Assembly: GCA_000992015.1 (NCBI GenBank)
Contig: LBSQ01000019.1
Span: forward strand, 1 to 33,701
DNA from: Parcubacteria group bacterium GW2011_GWA2_37_10
Lineage (GTDB): Bacteria; Patescibacteriota; Minisyncoccia; Minisyncoccales; Staskawiczbacteraceae
Length of the DNA stretch: 33,701 bases
Reading direction: 5' to 3'
Positions within the stretch are counted from its first letter, which is position 1, and every line of letters starts with the position of its first letter. The position numbers were made by a program, and so were the translations under genes. Under the pieces are notes generated by a model. The model saw only the letters and a program-made list of their open reading frames with translations. It was not told the DNA's origin and made no database searches. Shown here piece by piece: positions 6,786-24,908 of the stretch.

Positions 6786-7559
6786 TTGACAACAGAAGAA
6801 ATTTGGGAACTGTATTTACAGGGAAAGATTGAAGTCGCTGAAGCGGTGGCCACAAACGAGCTTTCCATGGTGGCCAGTTTGTCGATCAAGCAAGCATTGC
6901 ACGCGATTCTTGCCTGGTGTGCCTATCGGCGCAAGGAGTACGACGAGGCGTTGATAGAAATCGCTGGCGCTGGAGACAACCAGCGTGCATGTGAATGCCA
7001 CGCCTATGTGTTTGCTTATGCCAAAGGCTACGAGGATGACGTTAAGTTCCTTGCGCTGGTGCGTGAGCATTTAATCGGAAATATCAACGCCAGCAATGCA
7101 CTCGTAATTCGCGCAAGAATGCCCGATAGTGTCGTTGAGCACGAGCAAGTCTGGAGGATGGCGGAAAGTTTTGCCGAAGGCGCCGACGTCAGCAAACACG
7201 ACGTGTCGTTGGCAAACCTTCTGCACAACTGCGCGCGGTTTTTCCTCGACAAGGCGTGCAACCGACGCGACTTGACGTTTTCGCTCGGTCTGATTGAGGT
7301 TGCCTTAGCTCATTACGGAGAGGTGTCAAACTGGCACCATAGAGCCGCGGCAAACTTTTGGAAGTCGCACATCTTGGAGAAATTGACTGCGATTCCCGAC
7401 GCATTCGCGGCGGCCGCATTGTCTCTCAGTTTATGGGAATGCCAATGTGCCATGGAAAAGAAAACCGCGCCATTCCTCGACAAACTGGAATCGGTGCGCG
7501 CTCGCGTGGTGGATTTGGCTGAAAAGCTAGTCGAGTTCGCCAAACGAGCCCATGCGTGA
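6786..7559 (+). CDS. GC-rich ORFan, predicted all-alpha (TPR-like) 257-aa protein, TTG start
   Basis: An uninterrupted 257-codon frame in a roughly 53% G+C patch, from hand counts of lines 6841 and 7261. There is an SD plus TTG start. An in-frame TGA at 6771 excludes a longer N-terminus. No family recognised. Confidence 0.7.
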   Translation: MTTEEIWELYLQGKIEVAEAVATNELSMVASLSIKQALHAILAWCAYRRKEYDEALIEIAGAGDNQRACECHAYVFAYAKGYEDDVKFLALVREHLIGNINASNALVIRARMPDSVVEHEQVWRMAESFAEGADVSKHDVSLANLLHNCARFFLDKACNRRDLTFSLGLIEVALAHYGEVSNWHHRAAANFWKSHILEKLTAIPDAFAAAALSLSLWECQCAMEKKTAPFLDKLESVRARVVDLAEKLVEFAKRAHA

Positions 7560-18520: not shown

Positions 18521-18609
18521 TGACAAAGTATAATATAAAGTGTAAACTTTAACTGTGTTGCTCTTTGAGAGAAACGAGGTTCCAATCACCTTTTTGAGGA
18601 GTAAGTCCA

Positions 18610-19638
18610 ATGCCGATTTTGATGCCGAGTTTTTTTGGTCCGATATCTGTAAGAACATTGGCCGATTTGATCGCCGCTACGGCAACGGCAGATGAAACTA
18701 GTCCCGATTCAAAAAACGGGTGGGAGACAGATACTGCTTACCGCCTAGTTGAACGGCTTGTCATAGGCAGATGCAGTGATCATGGAGCTTTTGCTGACAT
18801 TGCCCAGCGAGTACTTATGATGGTATACAATCTTCCTGAGGCGAGGGTATTATCGCTCCTTGCCAAGTTTAACGGCGTCCGTCGTCTTCCAATGAACTCC
18901 GGCCTCGAGCAAGTTCTTGCGGCGATGGTAGGGGAATTGGAGCAAGCCATTGCTATGTTGCCAGACGGCACGAGAAAAATGCGTTGCCGGTCGTTTCTCA
19001 AATACCAAGAAGGTATTTTCTACGACGCGTGCGGCAGGTTTGACCTTGCGGCCGCAATGCACATTCAATCAGCATACGAGGCTAGTCGTATAAACGACGC
19101 GCCAGGAGCGACGATTGCTCAGTTTTGCGAAATGGCTTGCCGTTTCAAACATGCCTTGTGTCAAGACAAAATGGATGACGCGGACGTCTGGTTTCAGTGC
19201 ATGGAAGGAAGCTTTGCACAAGTTGTTGAAGCAACGCGCAATTCACCCTTTCAGGTGTCGTGGGCAGAGGATAACTGTCCTGCGTGCATGTTGGCGGCGT
19301 GCATATGGGTTGATCAAGCCCCCAAGGAATGGAGGGCTTGGGTGGCGACCCTTGTTGCTACCGCCAAGCTCGCCAAAGTGTATGAGTACGATGGAAGGTT
19401 TGCCCAGGCGGTGGAAATGGCTTTTATGGGTAACCCTGAAGCTGATGCGGCATTGATCGCAATTTCAGGCGACAGCGTCAACCCTGAATTGCAGGCGACA
19501 GTCTTGTTGTTGCTCGCCCGCCGTGCTATGCGCGCGGGAAAGAGAGATGCGGCGACAGAATTTGTCAATCGCATGCCAAAAGAAGGCGCACAACACGTGT
19601 GCGCTGTTGCCCAGCGCTTGCTGGCAATTAATAAGTGA
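18610..19638 (+). CDS. GC-rich ORFan, predicted all-alpha (TPR-like) 342-aa protein
   Basis: An uninterrupted 342-codon frame in a roughly 57% G+C patch (hand count of line 19261). GAGGAG lies 8 nt before the ATG. TPR-like helical pairs occur (YQEGIFYDACGRFDLAAAMHIQSAYEA; YEYDGRFAQAVEMAF). No family recognised. Confidence 0.7.
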   Translation: MPILMPSFFGPISVRTLADLIAATATADETSPDSKNGWETDTAYRLVERLVIGRCSDHGAFADIAQRVLMMVYNLPEARVLSLLAKFNGVRRLPMNSGLEQVLAAMVGELEQAIAMLPDGTRKMRCRSFLKYQEGIFYDACGRFDLAAAMHIQSAYEASRINDAPGATIAQFCEMACRFKHALCQDKMDDADVWFQCMEGSFAQVVEATRNSPFQVSWAEDNCPACMLAACIWVDQAPKEWRAWVATLVATAKLAKVYEYDGRFAQAVEMAFMGNPEADAALIAISGDSVNPELQATVLLLLARRAMRAGKRDAATEFVNRMPKEGAQHVCAVAQRLLAINK

Positions 19639-19647
19639 TTTAGCGAT

Positions 19648-20172
19648 ATGATTATTTATTTTGTTCGTCATGGAGAAACAGAGTGGAATAAAAAAAAGAT
19701 TGTTCAGGGTCATAAAGATTCGCCTTTAACTATAAAGGGAACAAGCAGCGCCGAAAGATTGGGAAAACTTTTGCGCGGGAAAAAGATTGAAATAATTTAT
19801 TCCAGCGATTTGGGAAGGTGCGTTCAAACAGCTGAAATCATAAATAGATGTCTTAAAGTAAAAATAATCAAGACAAAAAAACTACGCGAGAGGAATTTTG
19901 GCGATCTTAATGGACGGCCGAACAAAGAAGTCAAAAAAATCCTTGATTTAAATAATCCTGATAAAAAAGCTCCGAATGGTGAAAGTTTTAACGAGCAAAA
20001 AGAAAGAGTAGTTTTATTTATAAAGAAACTATTTTCAGAAAAATTCAAAAAAATTTTATTAGTTATTCATGATGGAACCGCAAGAGCGATATTATCAGAG
20101 CATTATAACGCGAATTTTAATTCTAAAAAGTGCGGCACATACTCAAATAAAATTTATAAAATAATAAAATAA
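19648..20172 (+). CDS. histidine phosphatase family protein (phosphoglycerate mutase-like)
   Basis: N-terminal RHGETEWN catalytic motif, SDL.R..QTAE, and a later H (VIHDG). Confidence 0.85.
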   Translation: MIIYFVRHGETEWNKKKIVQGHKDSPLTIKGTSSAERLGKLLRGKKIEIIYSSDLGRCVQTAEIINRCLKVKIIKTKKLRERNFGDLNGRPNKEVKKILDLNNPDKKAPNGESFNEQKERVVLFIKKLFSEKFKKILLVIHDGTARAILSEHYNANFNSKKCGTYSNKIYKIIK

Positions 20173-20176
20173 AAAC

Positions 20177-20569
20177 ATGGTAAATTTTTTAAGAGCTCCA
20201 AAAAAATCTATAATTTATGAAGACGATATTTTGTATGTTTGTCTGGCAAAAAAGCCGATTGCTGTCGGACATACTATTGTTGTTTTTAAACAAGATGTTT
20301 CTGATTTGAGCAAACTGCCGGACAGAGATTATGATTATTTAATGGATACGGTTTTTGCCACGCGAAACGGCTTGATGAAAACTTTGAAAGTTAAAAAAGT
20401 TTATCTGGTTTATATGGATGAAACAAAACACGTGCATTGGCATTTGATTCCAAGATACAAAGAAAAAGGATTTGATGTTTTCAAAAAAGCATCAGATATT
20501 TTACAGGATTTTTCTTTAGCCGATAAAATTAAAAAAAATTTGGTATTTATTAAAGACGAGCGGTTTTAA
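20177..20569 (+). CDS. HIT-family (histidine triad) protein
   Basis: GHTIVV and the HVHWHLIPR histidine-triad motif. Confidence 0.85.
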   Translation: MVNFLRAPKKSIIYEDDILYVCLAKKPIAVGHTIVVFKQDVSDLSKLPDRDYDYLMDTVFATRNGLMKTLKVKKVYLVYMDETKHVHWHLIPRYKEKGFDVFKKASDILQDFSLADKIKKNLVFIKDERF

Positions 20570-20592
20570 TATATAACCGCTCATTACATTCT

Positions 20593-20919
20593 ATGCACGA
20601 AATTATTTTAACAGCAATTTTGATATTAGTAATTTTATATGCGATTTATTTAAGTTTTCAAAAACGGGCGATTTGGGAGGATTTGCAGGTTGAAAAAATT
20701 AGGAGGGAATGGGATTTGGCTTATTTTTATTACCAAACGCATCAACAAGATTTTGCTATGCTTACAAAAGATTATTTTTTTGCCGATTATCCTCTTTTGA
20801 AAAAAGTTTTTGCGGAGTCTAAAATAGAGGAAATAAAAGATTATCTTAAAAAAGGCAGTTCTGATATTTTGCCATATTTTAATAATGTTGATAAATTTAA
20901 GAAAAGATTTTTAAGATAA
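20593..20919 (+). CDS. hypothetical small membrane protein
   Basis: N-terminal TM helix. No family recognised. Confidence 0.55.
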   Translation: MHEIILTAILILVILYAIYLSFQKRAIWEDLQVEKIRREWDLAYFYYQTHQQDFAMLTKDYFFADYPLLKKVFAESKIEEIKDYLKKGSSDILPYFNNVDKFKKRFLR

Positions 20920-20928
20920 TAAAACTTT

Positions 20929-20999
20929 GCCGTTTTAGCTTAGTGGTAAAGCAACGGTTTCGTAAACCGTAGACGCAAGTTCGATTCTTGCAAGCGGCT
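20929..20999 (+). tRNA. tRNA-Thr (anticodon CGT)
   Basis: Hand-folded cloverleaf with acceptor GCCGTTT/AAGCGGC, D arm GCTT-AGTGGTA-AAGC, anticodon loop TT-CGT-AA and T arm GCAAG-TTCGATT-CTTGC. Confidence 0.9.
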
Positions 21000-21036
21000 C
21001 ATGTAAATCTTTGCGGTTTGTGGTAGTATAAAATCA

Positions 21037-21347
21037 CCGAACCATAGGGACAGATTGTAGAAGAGATAAGGGTGGACCCGCCGAGAAACGCATAACTCGG
21101 TCGCTGGCTCGACTCCAGATGCTCTTTTACAATCTGTCTGCGCAGGGCGAAATGACTAGAGACAAGAATGAAGACCCCCCGAGATCTACGCATCGGGCAA
21201 TTTCATTCGCCTCCAGCCTTATGGCTGTTTGGGTTTGGGGACTATTTCCGCCCCCTATCAGACCTAAGAGAGGTTCGCTCTAAGTTGTTTTGCCAAGGGA
21301 CGCGCTGTTGTGCTCGGTGGATGGCACCGGCGCGTCCCTCTTTTTTT
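21037..21347 (+). ncRNA. unclassified GC-rich structured RNA candidate (about 310 nt; the 5' end is estimated)
   Basis: A 17-bp long-range helix pairs 21049-21065 with 21122-21138. A second helix pairs 21146-21155 with 21203-21211. Several local hairpins are present, and a strong terminator lies at the 3' end. G+C is about 57% on line 21061 by hand count. No plausible ORF. Confidence 0.5.
21297..21347 (+). terminator. strong rho-independent terminator
   Basis: GGGACGCGC (21297-21305) pairs with GCGCGTCCC (21330-21338). An inner GTGC/GCAC pairing adds to the stem. It is followed by TC and T7. Confidence 0.7.
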
Positions 21348-21404
21348 ATATTTTTTGATATGATAAAATAACCTAAACATAATATAATTTTTCATTTGAT
21401 ATAA

Positions 21405-22512
21405 ATGGCGGAATTTGAAAATAAAATTGAAGAACTAAAAAACAGGCTCCATAAGTTGATGGAGCGTCTTTGACATAGAAAGCAAGGAAAAGGAAATAAA
21501 AAAGTTAGAGGTGGAAACAGAAAAACCGGATTTTTGGAGAGATAATGAAAATGCCGCCAAAACGAGCCAAAAAATTTCTGAATTAAAAGAGGAAATTGAG
21601 AGTATTGAAAAAATAAAAAAAGAGATAGATGATTTAGCGGAGTTGAACATTTTGGGAAAAGATGACGAAAAAATGGTTGAATCTCTTGAAAAAAAATATC
21701 AGGAAATTGAATCAAAATTGGCAAAAGAAGAAATTAAAATTTTTTTGTCTGGCAAATATGACAGGAATAACGCAATAGTAGAAATATTTTCTGGCGCCGG
21801 GGGCCAGGATTCGCAAGATTGGGCGGCGATGCTGTTGCGAATGTACGAAAGATATTGCGGCAAAAAAGGTTTTAATGCCACAGTTTTGCAACAGTCGTTT
21901 GGAGACGCCGGGGGACCCGAGGGAAGAATCGGAATAAAATCTGTAACAATAGAAGTCAAGGGAAACTATGCTTACGGATATTTGAAAAAAGAATCAGGTG
22001 TGCACAGATTGGTAAGAATTTCTCCGTTTAATGCCCAGAAGTTAAGGCACACTTCTTTTGCGCTCGTGGAGGTTTTGCCGGAAATTGGCGGTAAAGATGT
22101 TGAACTGGAAATAAAACCCGACGATTTAAGAATAGATACTTTCCGAGCCGGGGGTCCTGGCGGACAATATGTAAATAAAACAGAATCTGCAATAAGAATA
22201 ACGCATATTTCAAGCGGAATTGTTGTGTCGTCGCAGTCAGAAAGATTGCAGGGAAAAAACAAGGAAAACGCGATGAAGGTTTTACGCGCAAAATTATATA
22301 AACTAAAAGAAGAGGGAAGAGAAAAAGAGTTAAAAAAAATTAAGGGCGATTCGGTTTCCGCGTCCTGGGGAAATCAAATAAGGTCTTATGTGTTGCATCC
22401 GTATAAATTGGTAAAAGATTTGCGCACGCAATATGAAACGTCTGATGCCGAAGCCGTGTTGGATGGAAATTTGGAAAAATTTATAGAAGCCGAATTAAAA
22501 ATAAATTTTTAA
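21405..22512 (+). CDS. prfB: peptide chain release factor 2 (requires a +1 programmed frameshift at 21471)
   Basis: Frame-0 ORF MAEFENKIEELKNRLHKLMERL ends at TGA 21471-21473. The +1 frame continues DIESKEKEIKKLE...DFW into the tracked ORF. That ORF carries the SPF and GGQ (RAGGPGGQYVNK) motifs. Confidence 0.93.
21461..21474 (+). other. prfB autoregulatory +1 frameshift site
   Basis: GGAG-CGT-CTT-TGA-C. An SD-like GGAG sits 3 nt before the slippery CTT T, followed by in-frame TGA C. This is the same layout as E. coli AGGGGG-TAT-CTT-TGA-C. Confidence 0.85.
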
Positions 22513-22541: not shown

Positions 22542-24908
22542 ATGGCAAACGAAAGAATAACAGAAAACATTGTTCGTAAAAAATTAGAAGCAACTGGAAT
22601 TACAGATATTAATGGTTTTTTGATTGAGGAACAAAAAAGCCAAAATCCAGTTATAGAAAAATTATTGAAAAAGGCGAGTAAGTCTGGGAACGGAGCAGGG
22701 AAGCCAGAGTTTATAATTTCTCAAAATAATAATAGAGATTTCTTGTTAGTTATTGAATGTAAGGCCGACTTTAAAAAACATATTTCATCGACAAAGGATC
22801 AATATAAGGATTATGCTGTTGACGGCGTACTATTATATGCATCCCATTTAGCGCAAGAATACAATATAATCGCGATTGCAGTAAGCGGACAAACGAAAAA
22901 TGAATTAAAAATTAGCACATTCATTTTTCCAAAGGGTTTTGGTGCATATTCAATTCTTACCGATACACGAAAAATTCTAATTGATGATATTATTTCTTGG
23001 CAAGATTATATTCGTTTTGCTACTTATGATGAAAGTTTGGCAAAGTCGCGAAAAAGTGACTTAAATAAATTTTCCCGCGATCTTCACGATTATATCCGCG
23101 ACTATGGAAAGATTACTGAAGCTCAAAAACCTTTGCTTGTAAGCGGCATACTTTTGGCTTTGATGGAAAAAGGATTTAAGGTCGCATATCCGAAATACGA
23201 GGAAGCCGAACTCGCGAAAAAAACTTTTCAGGCGGTAAAAGATATTATTGGCATGGCGAAACTTGGCGTTAATCAAGAAAGAAAAAAGAATGCTATTATA
23301 AATGCTTTTCGTTTTATCGAAGACCACCCCGAGCTTCAAAAGATTGACAGAAAAAAAAATGAATCGCCACTTGCGCATATTGTAAGGGAGATTGACAATG
23401 AAGTTAGGCCGTTTACACAAGATCATTATGATTATGATATAATCGGAAATTTTTACGGAGAATTTATCCGTTATACCGGCGGAGATGCACAGGGTCTTGG
23501 CATTGTTCTCACCCCAAAGCATATCACAGAAATTTTTGCAGATTTGGCAAAACTTAATAAAAATTCGATAGTACTAGATACATGTTGCGGTACGGGTGGT
23601 TTCCTGATTTCTGCAATGAAAAAAATGACTGCCGGCGCAAGTGAAATTGAGAGATTAAAAATTTTGGAAAATTCTTTGATAGGGGTTGAGCAAGAGCCAT
23701 CAATGTTTGCGTTGGCTGTTTCAAATATGATTTTGCGTGGAGACGGTAAAACTAATCTTTATCAGGGGTCATGTTTCGATGACGAGATTTTTAATCAAAT
23801 TAAAAATAAGGCAACAGCCGGTTTTATCAATCCGCCATATTCGCAGAAAGGCGAAAATCTTCACGAATGGAATTTTGTTATTCAACTTTTAAATGCTTTA
23901 CAAAAAAATGCGACGGGAATTATTATTGTGCCAATGTCGCTCGCAATTGCTCCGCATCCGCTCCGCGAACAAATTTTAAGAGAACATCGTCTTGAAGCGG
24001 TGATGAGCATGCCGAACGATTTATTTTATCCGGTCGGTATGGTTTCTTGCATTATGGTTTTTACCGCTCATGTTCCCCACGATAGTGACCCGCATCACGA
24101 AAGCTGGTTTGGTTATTGGAAAGATGATGGATTTAGAAAAGATAAAACGCAAGGAAGAATTTTAACAGAAAAGTGGTCGAAAGTTCGCAGGGAATGGATT
24201 GTTAATTTTACTAATAAAAAAATTACGCCGGGAGTCAGTATAAGAAAAAAAATAGGCATGAATAATGAATGGTGCGCAGAGGCATATCTTGAAACAGATT
24301 TTCATAATCTTAACGAAATTGATTTTATTAAAAATACGGTTAATTTAGCGTCTTTTTTATTCAAAAATGGAAAGAGTGAAATGGCAGAATTTTTGTTAAA
24401 AAATAAAAACTCAAACAAAAAAATGTCATTGGATATAAAAAAGTGGAAATGGTTTAATTTGGGCAATTTATTTACTTTCGAAAAGGGCGAGCGATTGACA
24501 AAATTAGATAGAATAAGTGGTGATATTCCGCTTATAACTGCTAGTGAAAACAATAATGGAATAGCGGGATTTATTTCTTTGGAAAATTTTGAAAATAAGA
24601 AAAAAATATTTGAAAATAAAATAACAATTGATATGTTTTTCAATGTTTTTTACCATGATTATAAATATTTTAGCGACGATAATATACACACTCTTATTCC
24701 GATTAAATTTGAATTAAATAAGTATAATGCTTTATTTTTAGTGACAGTATTAAGTAAATTAAAATATAAATATGCCTATGGCAGGCAGGTGAGATTGATG
24801 AGATTGCCTTTCGAAAAAATTAAACTTCCCGTTGATAAAAAAGGAAATCCCGATTGGCAATTTATGGAAAATTATATTAAATCGTTGCCTTATTCAGCTT
24901 CTTTATGA
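22542..24908 (+). CDS. single-chain restriction-modification enzyme (HSDR_N-type PD-ExK nuclease + gamma-class N6-adenine methylase + one HsdS-type TRD; Type IIG-like)
   Basis: N-terminal KPEF...DFLLVIECK nuclease motif. Motif I is VLDTCCGTGGFL and motif IV is FINPPYS. The C-terminal segment LGNLFTFEKGERL...GDIPLITASENNNG resembles a Type I specificity domain. Confidence 0.85.
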   Translation: MANERITENIVRKKLEATGITDINGFLIEEQKSQNPVIEKLLKKASKSGNGAGKPEFIISQNNNRDFLLVIECKADFKKHISSTKDQYKDYAVDGVLLYASHLAQEYNIIAIAVSGQTKNELKISTFIFPKGFGAYSILTDTRKILIDDIISWQDYIRFATYDESLAKSRKSDLNKFSRDLHDYIRDYGKITEAQKPLLVSGILLALMEKGFKVAYPKYEEAELAKKTFQAVKDIIGMAKLGVNQERKKNAIINAFRFIEDHPELQKIDRKKNESPLAHIVREIDNEVRPFTQDHYDYDIIGNFYGEFIRYTGGDAQGLGIVLTPKHITEIFADLAKLNKNSIVLDTCCGTGGFLISAMKKMTAGASEIERLKILENSLIGVEQEPSMFALAVSNMILRGDGKTNLYQGSCFDDEIFNQIKNKATAGFINPPYSQKGENLHEWNFVIQLLNALQKNATGIIIVPMSLAIAPHPLREQILREHRLEAVMSMPNDLFYPVGMVSCIMVFTAHVPHDSDPHHESWFGYWKDDGFRKDKTQGRILTEKWSKVRREWIVNFTNKKITPGVSIRKKIGMNNEWCAEAYLETDFHNLNEIDFIKNTVNLASFLFKNGKSEMAEFLLKNKNSNKKMSLDIKKWKWFNLGNLFTFEKGERLTKLDRISGDIPLITASENNNGIAGFISLENFENKKKIFENKITIDMFFNVFYHDYKYFSDDNIHTLIPIKFELNKYNALFLVTVLSKLKYKYAYGRQVRLMRLPFEKIKLPVDKKGNPDWQFMENYIKSLPYSASL

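What the first reader, a model, noticed from the sequence alone, without database searches (positions are those of the whole stretch)
21021..21347. Unassigned ~310-nt GC-rich structured RNA between tRNA-Thr and prfB
- **No credible ORF:** The 400-nt gap has about 57% G+C on line 21061. The only ORFs are 64-67-aa ones of odd composition.
- **Strong structure:** A 17-bp helix pairs 21049-21065 with 21122-21138, including one G-U pair, and encloses a branched 56-nt insert. A 9-bp helix pairs 21146-21155 with 21203-21211. There are hairpins at 21178-21197, 21214-21225 and 21267-21281. G4 and C6 tracts could form a pseudoknot.
- **Expression signals:** A 9-bp GC stem plus T7 terminator closes the 3' end. 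A possible extended -10 (TGgTAGTAT, 21021-21029) lies upstream.
- **Known families checked:** I looked for hallmarks of the usual mid-size RNAs and did not find them. For RNase P I looked for GGAAAGTCC and ACAGAA..CGGCTTA. For tmRNA I looked for a GGGG...TTCGAC 5' end, a tRNA-like 3' end and an ..ALAA tag. For SRP I looked for GGAAGCAGCC.
- **Interpretation:** It may be a divergent member of one of these families, a cis-leader of prfB, or an undescribed RNA. Like the 18610 gene, it abuts a tRNA.
Basis: seen in the sequence. Interest (0 to 1): 0.65.

Follow-up and report, generated by a model that had tools for sequence, protein, structure and literature searches.

The report
Undescribed structured RNA gene before prfB
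A roughly 300-base, strongly folded non-coding RNA gene of no known family sits between a threonine tRNA gene and the release-factor-2 gene of a tiny groundwater bacterium; one relative in another genus keeps the same fold, and its function is unknown.

Summary
Window 21047-21347 (+) is a GC-rich (55% against 36%) element that folds far better than shuffles (z -5.2). It ends in a 15-bp stem plus T7 terminator.

It matches no Rfam family. RNase P RNA and tmRNA lie on other contigs. Ffh, FtsY and SRP RNA were not found in this lineage.

One homolog was found, in genome G024 of another genus, at the same tRNA-Thr/prfB locus. Only about 55% of aligned bases are identical. Even so, 23 base pairs changed on both sides and stayed paired: 9 in domain 1 and 14 in domain 2. 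This is therefore a real structured RNA on the + strand.

In both genomes the element is flanked by a direct repeat of the spacer that carries the prfB promoter. The RNA therefore has its own promoter copy and terminator. A prfB leader is unlikely.

The pattern scans (79 family genomes, two order samples of 301 and 401, all species-representative genomes, metagenome and viral contigs) found no third member. These scans only detect members that keep the chosen motifs.

Best reading: a stand-alone, dispensable, lineage-restricted RNA that was inserted as a cassette. Its function is unknown. No expression data exist.

The parts
20929..21000 (+). tRNA-Thr(CGU), the upstream neighbour. No terminator lies between it and the RNA.
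   Evidence: ARAGORN; Rfam tRNA 73.6 bits.
21017..21046 (+). Left copy of the flanking direct repeat. It is a copy of the prfB promoter-bearing spacer, with the putative -10 box TAAAAT at 21029-21034.
   Evidence: 23 of 30 bases match 21352-21381. That site is also its best match in the whole genome. 1 of 1000 shuffles reaches the score. The promoter role is inferred, not shown.
21047..21139 (+). Domain 1. It has an 18-bp stem P1 (21048-21065 with 21122-21139) closing a three-way junction. Hairpin P1a is 21080-21085/21096-21101, with a loop ending CAUAA. Hairpin P1b is 21104-21107/21115-21118.
   Evidence: Fold. Model R2 finds the G024 counterpart at 20.7 bits. Of 28 pairs, 11 are the same, 3 changed on one side, 9 changed on both sides, 3 are broken and 2 fall on gaps.
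21140..21145 (+). Conserved unpaired junction GCGCAG between the two domains. It is part of a 13-nt block, GUCYGCGCAGGGC, that differs at one base between the two genomes.
   Evidence: Alignments.
21146..21294 (+). Domain 2.
- Closing stem P2: 21146-21161 with 21278-21294.
- Hairpin P2a: 21166-21173/21201-21208, with inner stem 21178-21182/21193-21197.
- Stem P2b (CCUC/GAGG): 21209-21213/21270-21274.
- Hairpin P2c: 21214-21218/21223-21227, loop UUAU.
- Variable arm: 21228-21268.
   Evidence: Model R1 finds the G024 counterpart at 30.7 bits, E 7e-06. 97.8% of cells are paired and 14 pairs changed on both sides, against 1-4 when the partners are slid. P2b, P2c and the variable arm show no change on both sides.
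21296..21347 (+). Intrinsic terminator: a GC-rich stem (arms 21296-21310 and 21325-21339) followed by T7 at 21341-21347.
   Evidence: (I2). G024 has a 12-bp stem plus a T-run at the same place.
21352..21381 (+). Right copy of the flanking direct repeat. It holds the extended -10 element TGATAAAAT (21361-21369) of prfB.
   Evidence: The same TGnTAAAnT element lies just before prfB in relatives with and without the RNA.
21405..22512 (+). prfB (release factor 2), the downstream neighbour. It has the +1 frameshift site CTT TGA at 21468-21473.
   Evidence: Read from the sequence. The protein matches relatives at 52-74% identity, except one at 42%.

Best explanation
This is a stand-alone gene for a structured non-coding RNA of about 300 nt. 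It belongs to a family that is not in Rfam, with two sequence types found so far.

**Anatomy (shown or read from sequence)**
- The RNA has two independently folding domains joined by a conserved GCGCAG hinge.
- It ends at its own intrinsic terminator.
- It sits as a cassette in the short spacer between tRNA-Thr(CGU) and prfB.
- A duplicated piece of that spacer, carrying the prfB -10 element, flanks it on both sides. One copy can drive the RNA and the other still drives prfB.

**Mechanism (inferred)**
- The RNA most likely acts in trans through its folded shape, as a binding partner or scaffold for a protein or ligand, or as a catalyst.
- It is unlikely to act by coding, by simple antisense pairing, or as a prfB leader.
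- It is dispensable and restricted to a few lineages.

**Shown:** structure, conservation with compensatory changes, terminator, flanking repeat, absence of known-family matches.
**Inferred:** transcription start, independence from prfB, action in trans.
**Unknown:** the partner or activity.
For: - **Fold strength:** z -5.18 for this genome's RNA and z -6.15 for the G024 homolog.
- **Homolog found twice:** two separate single-sequence covariance models, one per domain, each find the G024 counterpart. The two hits lie next to each other, in the same order and strand, and between tRNA-Thr and prfB. R1 scored 30.7 bits and R2 20.7 bits.
- **Compensatory change:** aligned bases are only 53-59% identical. 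Yet 14 pairs in domain 2 and 9 in domain 1 changed on both sides and stayed paired. Slid-partner controls give 1-4.
- **Strand:** G-U pairs on the + strand and the T-run fix the strand.
- **Not coding:** there is no protein signal. tblastx between the two copies finds only a 10-aa match over the conserved 20-mer. The ORFs have no Pfam hit.
- **No known family:**
- **Separate transcription unit:** a terminator is followed by the TGATAAAAT element, which relatives lacking the RNA also have before prfB.
- **Flanking repeat is significant in both genomes:** 1 of 1000 and 0 of 1000 shuffles reach the observed score.
- **Dispensable:**
  - 5 of 22 loci have 25-44 nt between the tRNA and prfB.
  - G016, of the same genus as G024, keeps the terminator end and promoter (33 of 35 bases identical) but has lost the body.
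Against: - **No expression data:** no RNA run holds the stretch, so the promoter, the ends and even transcription are inferred.
- **Thin comparative base:** only two sequence types exist, so covariation rests on one pairwise comparison. That alignment was fitted to a structure derived from this genome's own sequence, which inflates the paired percentage.
- **Partly unsupported structure:** P2b, P2c and the variable arm show no change on both sides.
- **Weak scans:**
  - The pattern scans need conserved motifs.
  - The whole-genome covariance searches missed the known positive G024.
  - The narrow distribution may therefore be partly an artefact.
- **No partner seen:** no protein partner or target is evident, and the only shared neighbours are tRNA-Thr and prfB.
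- **Leader not excluded:** both copies lie directly upstream of prfB, which a cis-acting leader would also predict.
- **Same-genus genome:** G001 shows no BLAST-level homolog. Its contig ends 32 nt after the tRNA.
Confidence: 0.62

Rival explanations
1. The element is a mobile or once-mobile RNA cassette. It is a protein-less element bounded by short inverted ends. It inserted separately into the tRNA-Thr/prfB spacer of each lineage and duplicated 30-45 bp of the target. The RNA fold would serve the element's own propagation, or would be cargo. This overlaps with the best explanation and differs mainly on origin and on what selection maintains.
For: - The flanking repeats are significant within each genome: 1 of 1000 and 0 of 1000 shuffles reach the score.
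- The left flanks of the two genomes are not alike (348 of 1000 shuffles reach the score). The orthologous right flanks are only weakly alike (57 of 1000).
- The repeats therefore look younger than the split of the two RNAs.
- On a PrfB tree this genome and G024 are not sisters (single gene, weak support).
- The insert runs exactly from GGG to the end of the terminator, with ends AGGGAC...GTCCCT (read from sequence).
- The locus is variable in relatives, holding small ORFs or other inserts.
Against: - There is a single copy per genome.
- No further copy was found in the 79 family genomes, the two order samples, the species-representative genomes, the metagenome contigs or the viral contigs.
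- No recombinase or reverse transcriptase lies nearby.
- From recall, target duplications of 30-45 bp are unusual for transposition.
- Gene conversion between two repeats 335 nt apart would give the same pattern after a single ancient insertion.
- The inverted ends are only about 6 bp long and also form part of the RNA's own helices.
Confidence: 0.15
2. The element is a cis-acting leader or attenuator of prfB. In this view it is a large sensor RNA. Its terminator would decide whether transcripts starting at the tRNA operon, or at the left promoter copy, read through into prfB.
For: - Both known copies lie directly upstream of prfB in the same orientation, 45-60 nt from its start.
- A complex fold followed at once by a terminator is the usual riboswitch layout.
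- The 5' strand of P1 (AGGGACAG) resembles the 5' arm of the terminator (AGGGACGC), so alternative pairings can be drawn.
Against: - A conserved extended -10 element lies between the terminator and prfB. It is also present in relatives that lack the RNA, so prfB does not need read-through.
- The closing stem of domain 2 and the terminator abut but do not overlap.
- The only anti-terminator pairing I could draw is about 5 bp, against a 15-bp terminator stem (read from sequence).
- No riboswitch or leader family matches.
- Most relatives regulate prfB without it.
- Co-location is equally explained by shared descent.
Confidence: 0.12
3. The element is a highly diverged member of a known housekeeping RNA family, such as 6S, SRP, RNase P or tmRNA.
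For: - No 6S RNA and no SRP RNA was found in this genome.
- 6S RNAs are hard to detect by sequence (recalled).
Against: - RNase P RNA and tmRNA are present elsewhere in the genome.
- Ffh and FtsY were not found:
  - in this genome;
  - in 41 genomes of the order, counting this one;
  - in 61 genomes of the phylum, counting this one.
- A paper already reports that SRP subunits are absent from many bacteria of this radiation (PMC8080830; one passage read).
- The branched two-domain fold is unlike the rod with a central bubble of 6S RNA (recalled).
- A housekeeping RNA would not be missing from most relatives or deleted in G016.
Confidence: 0.03
4. The element is not a functional RNA. It would be a decaying fragment of foreign GC-rich DNA or of a gene, whose fold is a by-product of composition.
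For: - The genome holds many GC-rich islands.
- The distribution is narrow.
- The element was lost in G016.
Against: - 23 pairs changed on both sides while the sequence drifted to about 55% identity.
- Fold z-scores are -5.2 and -6.2.
- The terminator and the hinge are conserved.
- There is no protein similarity.
Confidence: 0.05

Closest known systems
Orphan structured non-coding RNAs found as GC-rich intergenic islands in AT-rich genomes (the approach of PMC8632094 and PMC11109978; search listings seen, and one term search of PMC11109978 that found nothing on this lineage)
   Same: - It is a GC-rich island in an AT-rich genome.
- It has a complex multi-stem fold with covariation.
- It has its own terminator.
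- Its distribution is narrow.
- No function can be read from its context.
   Different: - It matches none of the 4227 Rfam 15 models.
- Only two sequence types are known.
- It is flanked by a duplicated promoter-bearing spacer.
Large tRNA-adjacent structured RNAs such as ROOL and GOLLD (properties recalled, not tested beyond the Rfam scan)
   Same: - It lies beside a tRNA gene.
- It is complex-folded and dispensable.
- Its distribution is patchy.
   Different: - It is much smaller, about 300 nt.
- There is no Rfam match at all.
- No phage context was seen.
Riboswitch or leader with a terminator expression platform
   Same: - A complex fold is followed directly by an intrinsic terminator.
- It lies upstream of, and in the same orientation as, a gene.
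   Different: - A promoter element lies between the terminator and the gene.
- There is no overlap between the sensor stem and the terminator.
- There is no family match.
Non-autonomous insertion elements (MITE-like elements, or cis-mobilisable elements flanked by att repeats); properties recalled
   Same: - It is short and non-coding.
- It has short inverted ends.
- It is flanked by direct repeats of the target.
- It sits next to a tRNA gene.
   Different: - It is single copy.
- The repeats are 30-45 bp and do not include the tRNA 3' end.
- The interior shows compensatory changes, which are typical of a selected RNA fold.

Membership tests
Bacterial RNase P RNA (RF00010) | Match to the covariance model with its conserved core helices; one essential copy per genome | tested here: not met
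   The region has no match even at E<=10. The genome's RNase P RNA is at C8:3525-3941, 126.7 bits.
tmRNA (RF00023) | tRNA-like ends plus a tag reading frame | tested here: not met
   ARAGORN finds no tmRNA in the window. The genome's tmRNA is at C5:12429-12777, 92.8 bits.
SRP RNA (RF00169, RF01854) | Conserved domain IV hairpin that binds the Ffh M domain | tested here: not met
   - Neither model matches anywhere in this genome.
- RF00169 matches in 0 of 41 genomes of the order, counting this one.
SRP RNA (RF00169, RF01854) | Presence of its protein partner Ffh, and of FtsY | tested here: not met
   - PF02978 and PF00448 are not found in this genome.
- E. coli Ffh by tblastn gives a best E of 0.084.
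- PF00448 gives only weak P-loop matches in 41 genomes of the order and 61 of the phylum, each count including this one.
- The genome is 94% complete, so absence is not proven.
6S RNA (RF00013) | Long rod-like helix with a large central bubble; broadly conserved within a lineage | tested here: not met
   - There is no model match.
- The fold is two branched domains.
- The element is absent from the syntenic locus of most relatives.
- RNA polymerase binding cannot be tested here.
Riboswitch or cis-acting leader | Mutually exclusive pairing between the sensor and the terminator, and no promoter between the element and the regulated gene | tested here: inconclusive
   - A conserved extended -10 element lies between the terminator and prfB.
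- Only a weak alternative pairing of about 5 bp could be drawn from the sequence.
- No transcript data exist.
Miniature or cis-mobilisable insertion element | Flanking direct repeats of the target site | tested here: met
   - In this genome, 23 of 30 bases match and 1 of 1000 shuffles reaches the score.
- In G024 the repeat is about 41 nt and 0 of 1000 shuffles reaches the score.
Miniature or cis-mobilisable insertion element | Several copies or several insertion sites, or a cognate recombinase | tested here: not met
   - There is a single copy in this genome.
- Both known copies are at the same locus.
- No recombinase lies nearby.

The most novel reading that the evidence does not exclude
The element may be a new kind of protein-less, site-specific RNA cassette. 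In this reading, a structured RNA of about 300 nt entered the tRNA-Thr/prfB spacer independently in two genera. Each time it duplicated 30-45 bp of the target, including the prfB promoter. It thereby captured a promoter for itself without silencing the essential gene downstream. The conserved two-domain fold would then be needed for the element's own mobility, for example as a ribozyme or as a guide or template for a host enzyme.
Probability: 0.1. Interest if true: 0.85.

Novelty: new variant of a known kind. Interest (0 to 1): 0.45.

Why it matters
- **Little-known RNA content:** bacteria of this radiation have tiny genomes with little spare DNA. My literature searches listed no survey of their non-coding RNAs. 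These searches cover only the held library.
- **Cost of the element:** a 300-nt RNA kept in shape by compensatory changes takes up space in a 0.7-Mb genome. That suggests it does something useful, or that it is a selfish element of an unusual kind.
- **What it offers:** it is a concrete, well-bounded candidate for biochemical work such as probing, self-cleavage tests and partner pull-downs.
- **Possible wider point:** the duplicated-promoter arrangement may show how a new RNA gene can be slotted in front of an essential gene without disturbing it.
- **Limit:** with only two members and no expression data, it remains a candidate and not a characterised class.

Tried and rejected
**Homolog searches that found no new member**
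- BLAST of the RNA against 61 genomes (60 relatives plus this one) gave only chance matches of 14-31 nt.
- The 20-mer motif with up to 2 mismatches in 301 genomes of the order gave four coding-region chance hits.
- The two-part pattern in 79 family genomes gave this genome, G024 and one chance hit inside a coding region of G332.
- The same idea over all species-representative genomes gave G024 only, plus three unrelated GC-rich hits.
- Metagenome contigs gave only copies identical to G024.
- Viral contigs gave 57 pattern hits, none confirmed by model R1.
- The 20-mer with up to 3 mismatches in 79 family genomes gave 19 loci. Only G024 scored, and the two next-best loci I read were coding.
- The three-part pattern in 401 genomes of the order gave one chance hit.

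**Searches that say nothing either way**
- Whole-genome searches with model R1 missed the known positive G024, in the family search and in the five-genome search. Their blanks carry no information.
- The tRNA-Thr contig of G001 (same genus) ends 32 nt after the tRNA.
- No RNA holder is listed among public runs.
- Laid contigs gave one identical copy in X2 and no variants.

**Ideas tested and dropped**
- Relation to the other GC-rich islands at 18610 and 6786: none found, and those read as proteins.
- Kissing loop between CAUAA and UUAUG: only 4 bp, about -1 kcal/mol, so it is not used as evidence.
- Pairing of the CCUCC motif with the prfB frameshift region: only 4-5 nt and no covariation.
- The structured region at the same locus in G009:
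  - no BLAST homolog in 79 genomes;
  - its flank repeat is not significant;
  - model R1 does not hit it.
- A two-sequence model was abandoned. MAFFT alignments of the two copies are out of register in the helices, so single-sequence models were used instead.

**Closed or unavailable**
- Supplementary files of papers were not consulted.

Full report
**Setting.** The window is contig C19 of a 716-kb genome in 40 contigs, 94% complete. The genome is 36.6% G+C. Its relatives have genomes of 0.3-1.5 Mb. The record that holds the homolog described below is titled a Patescibacteria group bacterium.

The finding lies between tRNA-Thr(CGU) at 20929-21000 and prfB. prfB starts at 21405 and carries the usual CTT TGA +1 frameshift site at 21468-21473.

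- The stretch 21047-21340 is 54.8% G+C, against 36.4% for the window.
- As RNA, the + strand of 21001-21350 folds at -143.2 kcal/mol. One hundred dinucleotide shuffles give -108.7 +/- 6.7, so z is -5.18 and no shuffle does as well. The - strand gives z -4.10.
T7 follows at 21341-21347.
- Only two short ORFs overlap the region. Neither has a Pfam match.
This applies to 21146-21155 with 21203-21211, and to the 21267-21281 hairpin (see below).

**It is not a known RNA.**
- At gathering scores, Rfam 15 reports only the three tRNAs of the window.
- At E<=10 on 20900-21450, it adds only terminator-like noise far below threshold. The same is true of the homolog.
- The genome's RNase P RNA (C8:3525-3941, 126.7 bits) and tmRNA (C5:12429-12777, 92.8 bits) are elsewhere.
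- No SRP RNA and no 6S RNA was found in the genome.

The SRP reading fails on the protein side as well.
- The Ffh M domain and the SRP GTPase domain are not found in this genome.
- E. coli Ffh used locally as a tblastn query gives a best E of 0.084. E. coli RplS and GrpE are found by the same method, while TrmD and RpsP are not at E 1e-3.
- The GTPase domain gives only weak P-loop matches in 41 genomes of the order and 61 of the phylum, each count including this genome.
- E. coli Ffh finds nothing in five closed genomes.
- One passage of PMC8080830 already states that SRP subunits are absent from many bacteria of this radiation. This is therefore a known trait and not a discovery.

**A homolog with the same fold.**
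- I took prfB loci from 41 genomes, counting this one, and read the DNA upstream of prfB in 30 of them.
- tRNA-Thr(CGU) lies within 1.5 kb upstream in 22 of 30 loci. It is preceded directly by tRNA-Gly(CCC) in 13.
- The tRNA-to-prfB spacer ranges from 25-44 nt (5 of 22 loci) to more than 1 kb.
- One locus, G024 of another genus, holds a GC-rich stretch that shares two blocks with this genome's RNA: GCGCAGGGC and CCTCC[AG]GCCTT[AG]TGGCTGTT.
- BLAST sees only the 20-mer.
- On its own, the G024 stretch folds with z -6.15.
- It has the same layout:
  - a long stem closing a three-way junction, which is domain 1;
  - a GCGCAG hinge;
  - a 16-18-bp stem closing a multi-branch domain 2;
  - a terminator.

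MAFFT alignments were out of register in the helices. I therefore built covariance models from this genome's sequence alone.
- Model R1 (domain 2, 161 positions) finds G024 full length at 30.7 bits, E 7e-06. It finds nothing else among the 30 sources searched, namely the window and 29 prfB loci.
- Model R2 (domain 1, 102 positions) finds the adjacent G024 segment at 20.7 bits, E 0.017.

Pair counts on these alignments:

| Domain | Pairs in model | Changed on both sides | Other |
|---|---|---|---|
| Domain 2 | 52 | 14 | 97.8% of cells paired; slid-partner controls give 1-4 |
| Domain 1 | 28 | 9 | 11 same, 3 one side, 3 broken, 2 gaps |

- Aligned positions are only 53% and 59% identical.
- The support sits in P1, P1a, P1b, P2 and P2a. 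P2b, P2c and the variable arm show no change on both sides.
- Caveats: there are only two sequences, and the alignments were fitted to a structure taken from this genome's sequence.
- G-U pairs and the T-run place the RNA on the + strand.

**Transcription unit.**
- A 30-nt direct repeat flanks the element. The left copy is 21017-21046 and the right copy is 21352-21381, with 23 of 30 bases identical.
- The right copy is the best match to the left copy in the whole genome. One of 1000 shuffles reaches the alignment score.
- The right copy holds TGATAAAAT at 21361-21369. This is an extended -10 element that relatives also carry just before prfB, whether or not they have the RNA.
- The left copy has TAAAAT at 21029-21034, about 13 nt before domain 1.
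- G024 shows the same arrangement with a repeat of about 41 nt (0 of 1000 shuffles).
- The RNA therefore has a promoter copy of its own and a strong terminator, and prfB keeps its promoter. This argues against a prfB leader, although no transcript data exist.
- No public RNA run holds the stretch. Laid DNA contigs only showed one identical copy.

**Origin.**
- The left and right repeats are alike within each genome. The two left copies are not alike (348 of 1000 shuffles reach the score). The two orthologous right copies are only weakly alike (57 of 1000).
- Two readings fit this. Either the element entered this spacer separately in each lineage, or one old insertion has been homogenised by gene conversion.
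- On a single-gene PrfB tree, this genome and G024 are not sisters (weak support).
- G016, of the same genus as G024, keeps the last bases of the terminator and the prfB promoter (33 of 35 identical) but lacks the body of the RNA. It also keeps a TAATAT box like G024's left copy (read). This looks like an internal deletion, so the RNA is dispensable.
- The insert begins at GGG and ends with the terminator. Its ends form a short inverted repeat: AGGGAC...GTCCCT in this genome and AGGGGTTG...CACAGCCCT in G024.

**Distribution.** No third sequence type was found. The scans were:
- 61 genomes (60 relatives plus this one) by BLAST;
- 79 family genomes by two patterns;
- 301 and 401 genomes of the order, each count including this one;
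- all species-representative genomes;
- metagenome contigs, which gave only G024-identical copies;
- viral contigs.

These scans demand conserved motifs. The whole-genome covariance searches missed the known positive. 'Rare' is therefore a provisional statement.

**Function.**
- Nothing in the neighbourhood is shared between the two genomes except tRNA-Thr and prfB. No protein partner suggests itself.
- A possible loop-loop contact and possible pairing to the prfB frameshift region are too weak to count.
- My best reading is a stand-alone, dispensable structured RNA that works through its fold, with an unknown partner or activity (0.62).
- The rivals are:
  - a mobile cassette whose fold serves its own spread (0.15);
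  - a prfB attenuator (0.12);
  - a relic (0.05);
  - a diverged known family (0.03).

**Novelty.**
- It is a new family of an ordinary kind of object, an orphan structured RNA gene, with an unusual duplicated-promoter setting.
- My literature searches for RNAs of this lineage found nothing relevant. They cover only the held library, and supplements were not seen.

Noticed in passing
whole genome G000 and relatives: No Ffh, FtsY or SRP RNA was found in this genome, in 41 genomes of the order, or in 61 genomes of the phylum (both counts include this genome), several of them closed. PMC8080830 (one passage read) already says that SRP subunits are absent from many bacteria of this radiation.
   Followed up: partly
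window 18521-20928: About 2.4 kb lies between tRNA-Gly(CCC) and tRNA-Thr(CGU). These two tRNAs are adjacent in 13 of 30 loci. The insert holds a GC-rich 342-aa ORF (18610-19638) with no Pfam match, a histidine phosphatase, a HIT-domain protein and a 108-aa ORF. It looks like an insertion.
   Followed up: partly
window 6786-7559: A second GC-rich island (54% G+C) reads as a 257-aa helical protein with a TTG start. It has no Pfam match and is unrelated to the 18610 ORF or to the RNA.
   Followed up: partly
window 21440-21471: A hairpin lies just upstream of the prfB CTT TGA frameshift site (arms CTCCAT and ATGGAG). It encloses the Shine-Dalgarno-like GGAG. By eye, its arms change together across the 30 loci, for example GTCCAT/ATGGAC and CTCCGG/GGGAG.
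   Followed up: partly
L026 (G009:C2) about 1190-1365: At the same tRNA-Thr/prfB locus, another genus has a different GC-rich, hairpin-rich stretch of about 170 nt ending in a terminator (fold z -3.3). It has no BLAST homolog in 79 family genomes and no match to model R1. It may be a second orphan RNA.
   Followed up: partly
L019, L023, L024 (spacer between tRNA-Thr and prfB): Three relatives carry a small ORF beginning MKFSE(L/F) in the same spacer (read). The spacer appears to be a hot spot for small inserts.
   Followed up: no
window 22542-24908: Directly after prfB lies a 788-aa fusion of an N6 DNA methylase and a type I specificity domain. It is absent from the matching place in G024.
   Followed up: no
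tool behaviour: the genome search with an RNA model did not return the G024 homolog, although search_with_rna_model finds it at 30.7 bits on the fetched locus. Blanks from that route should not be read as absence.
   Followed up: yes
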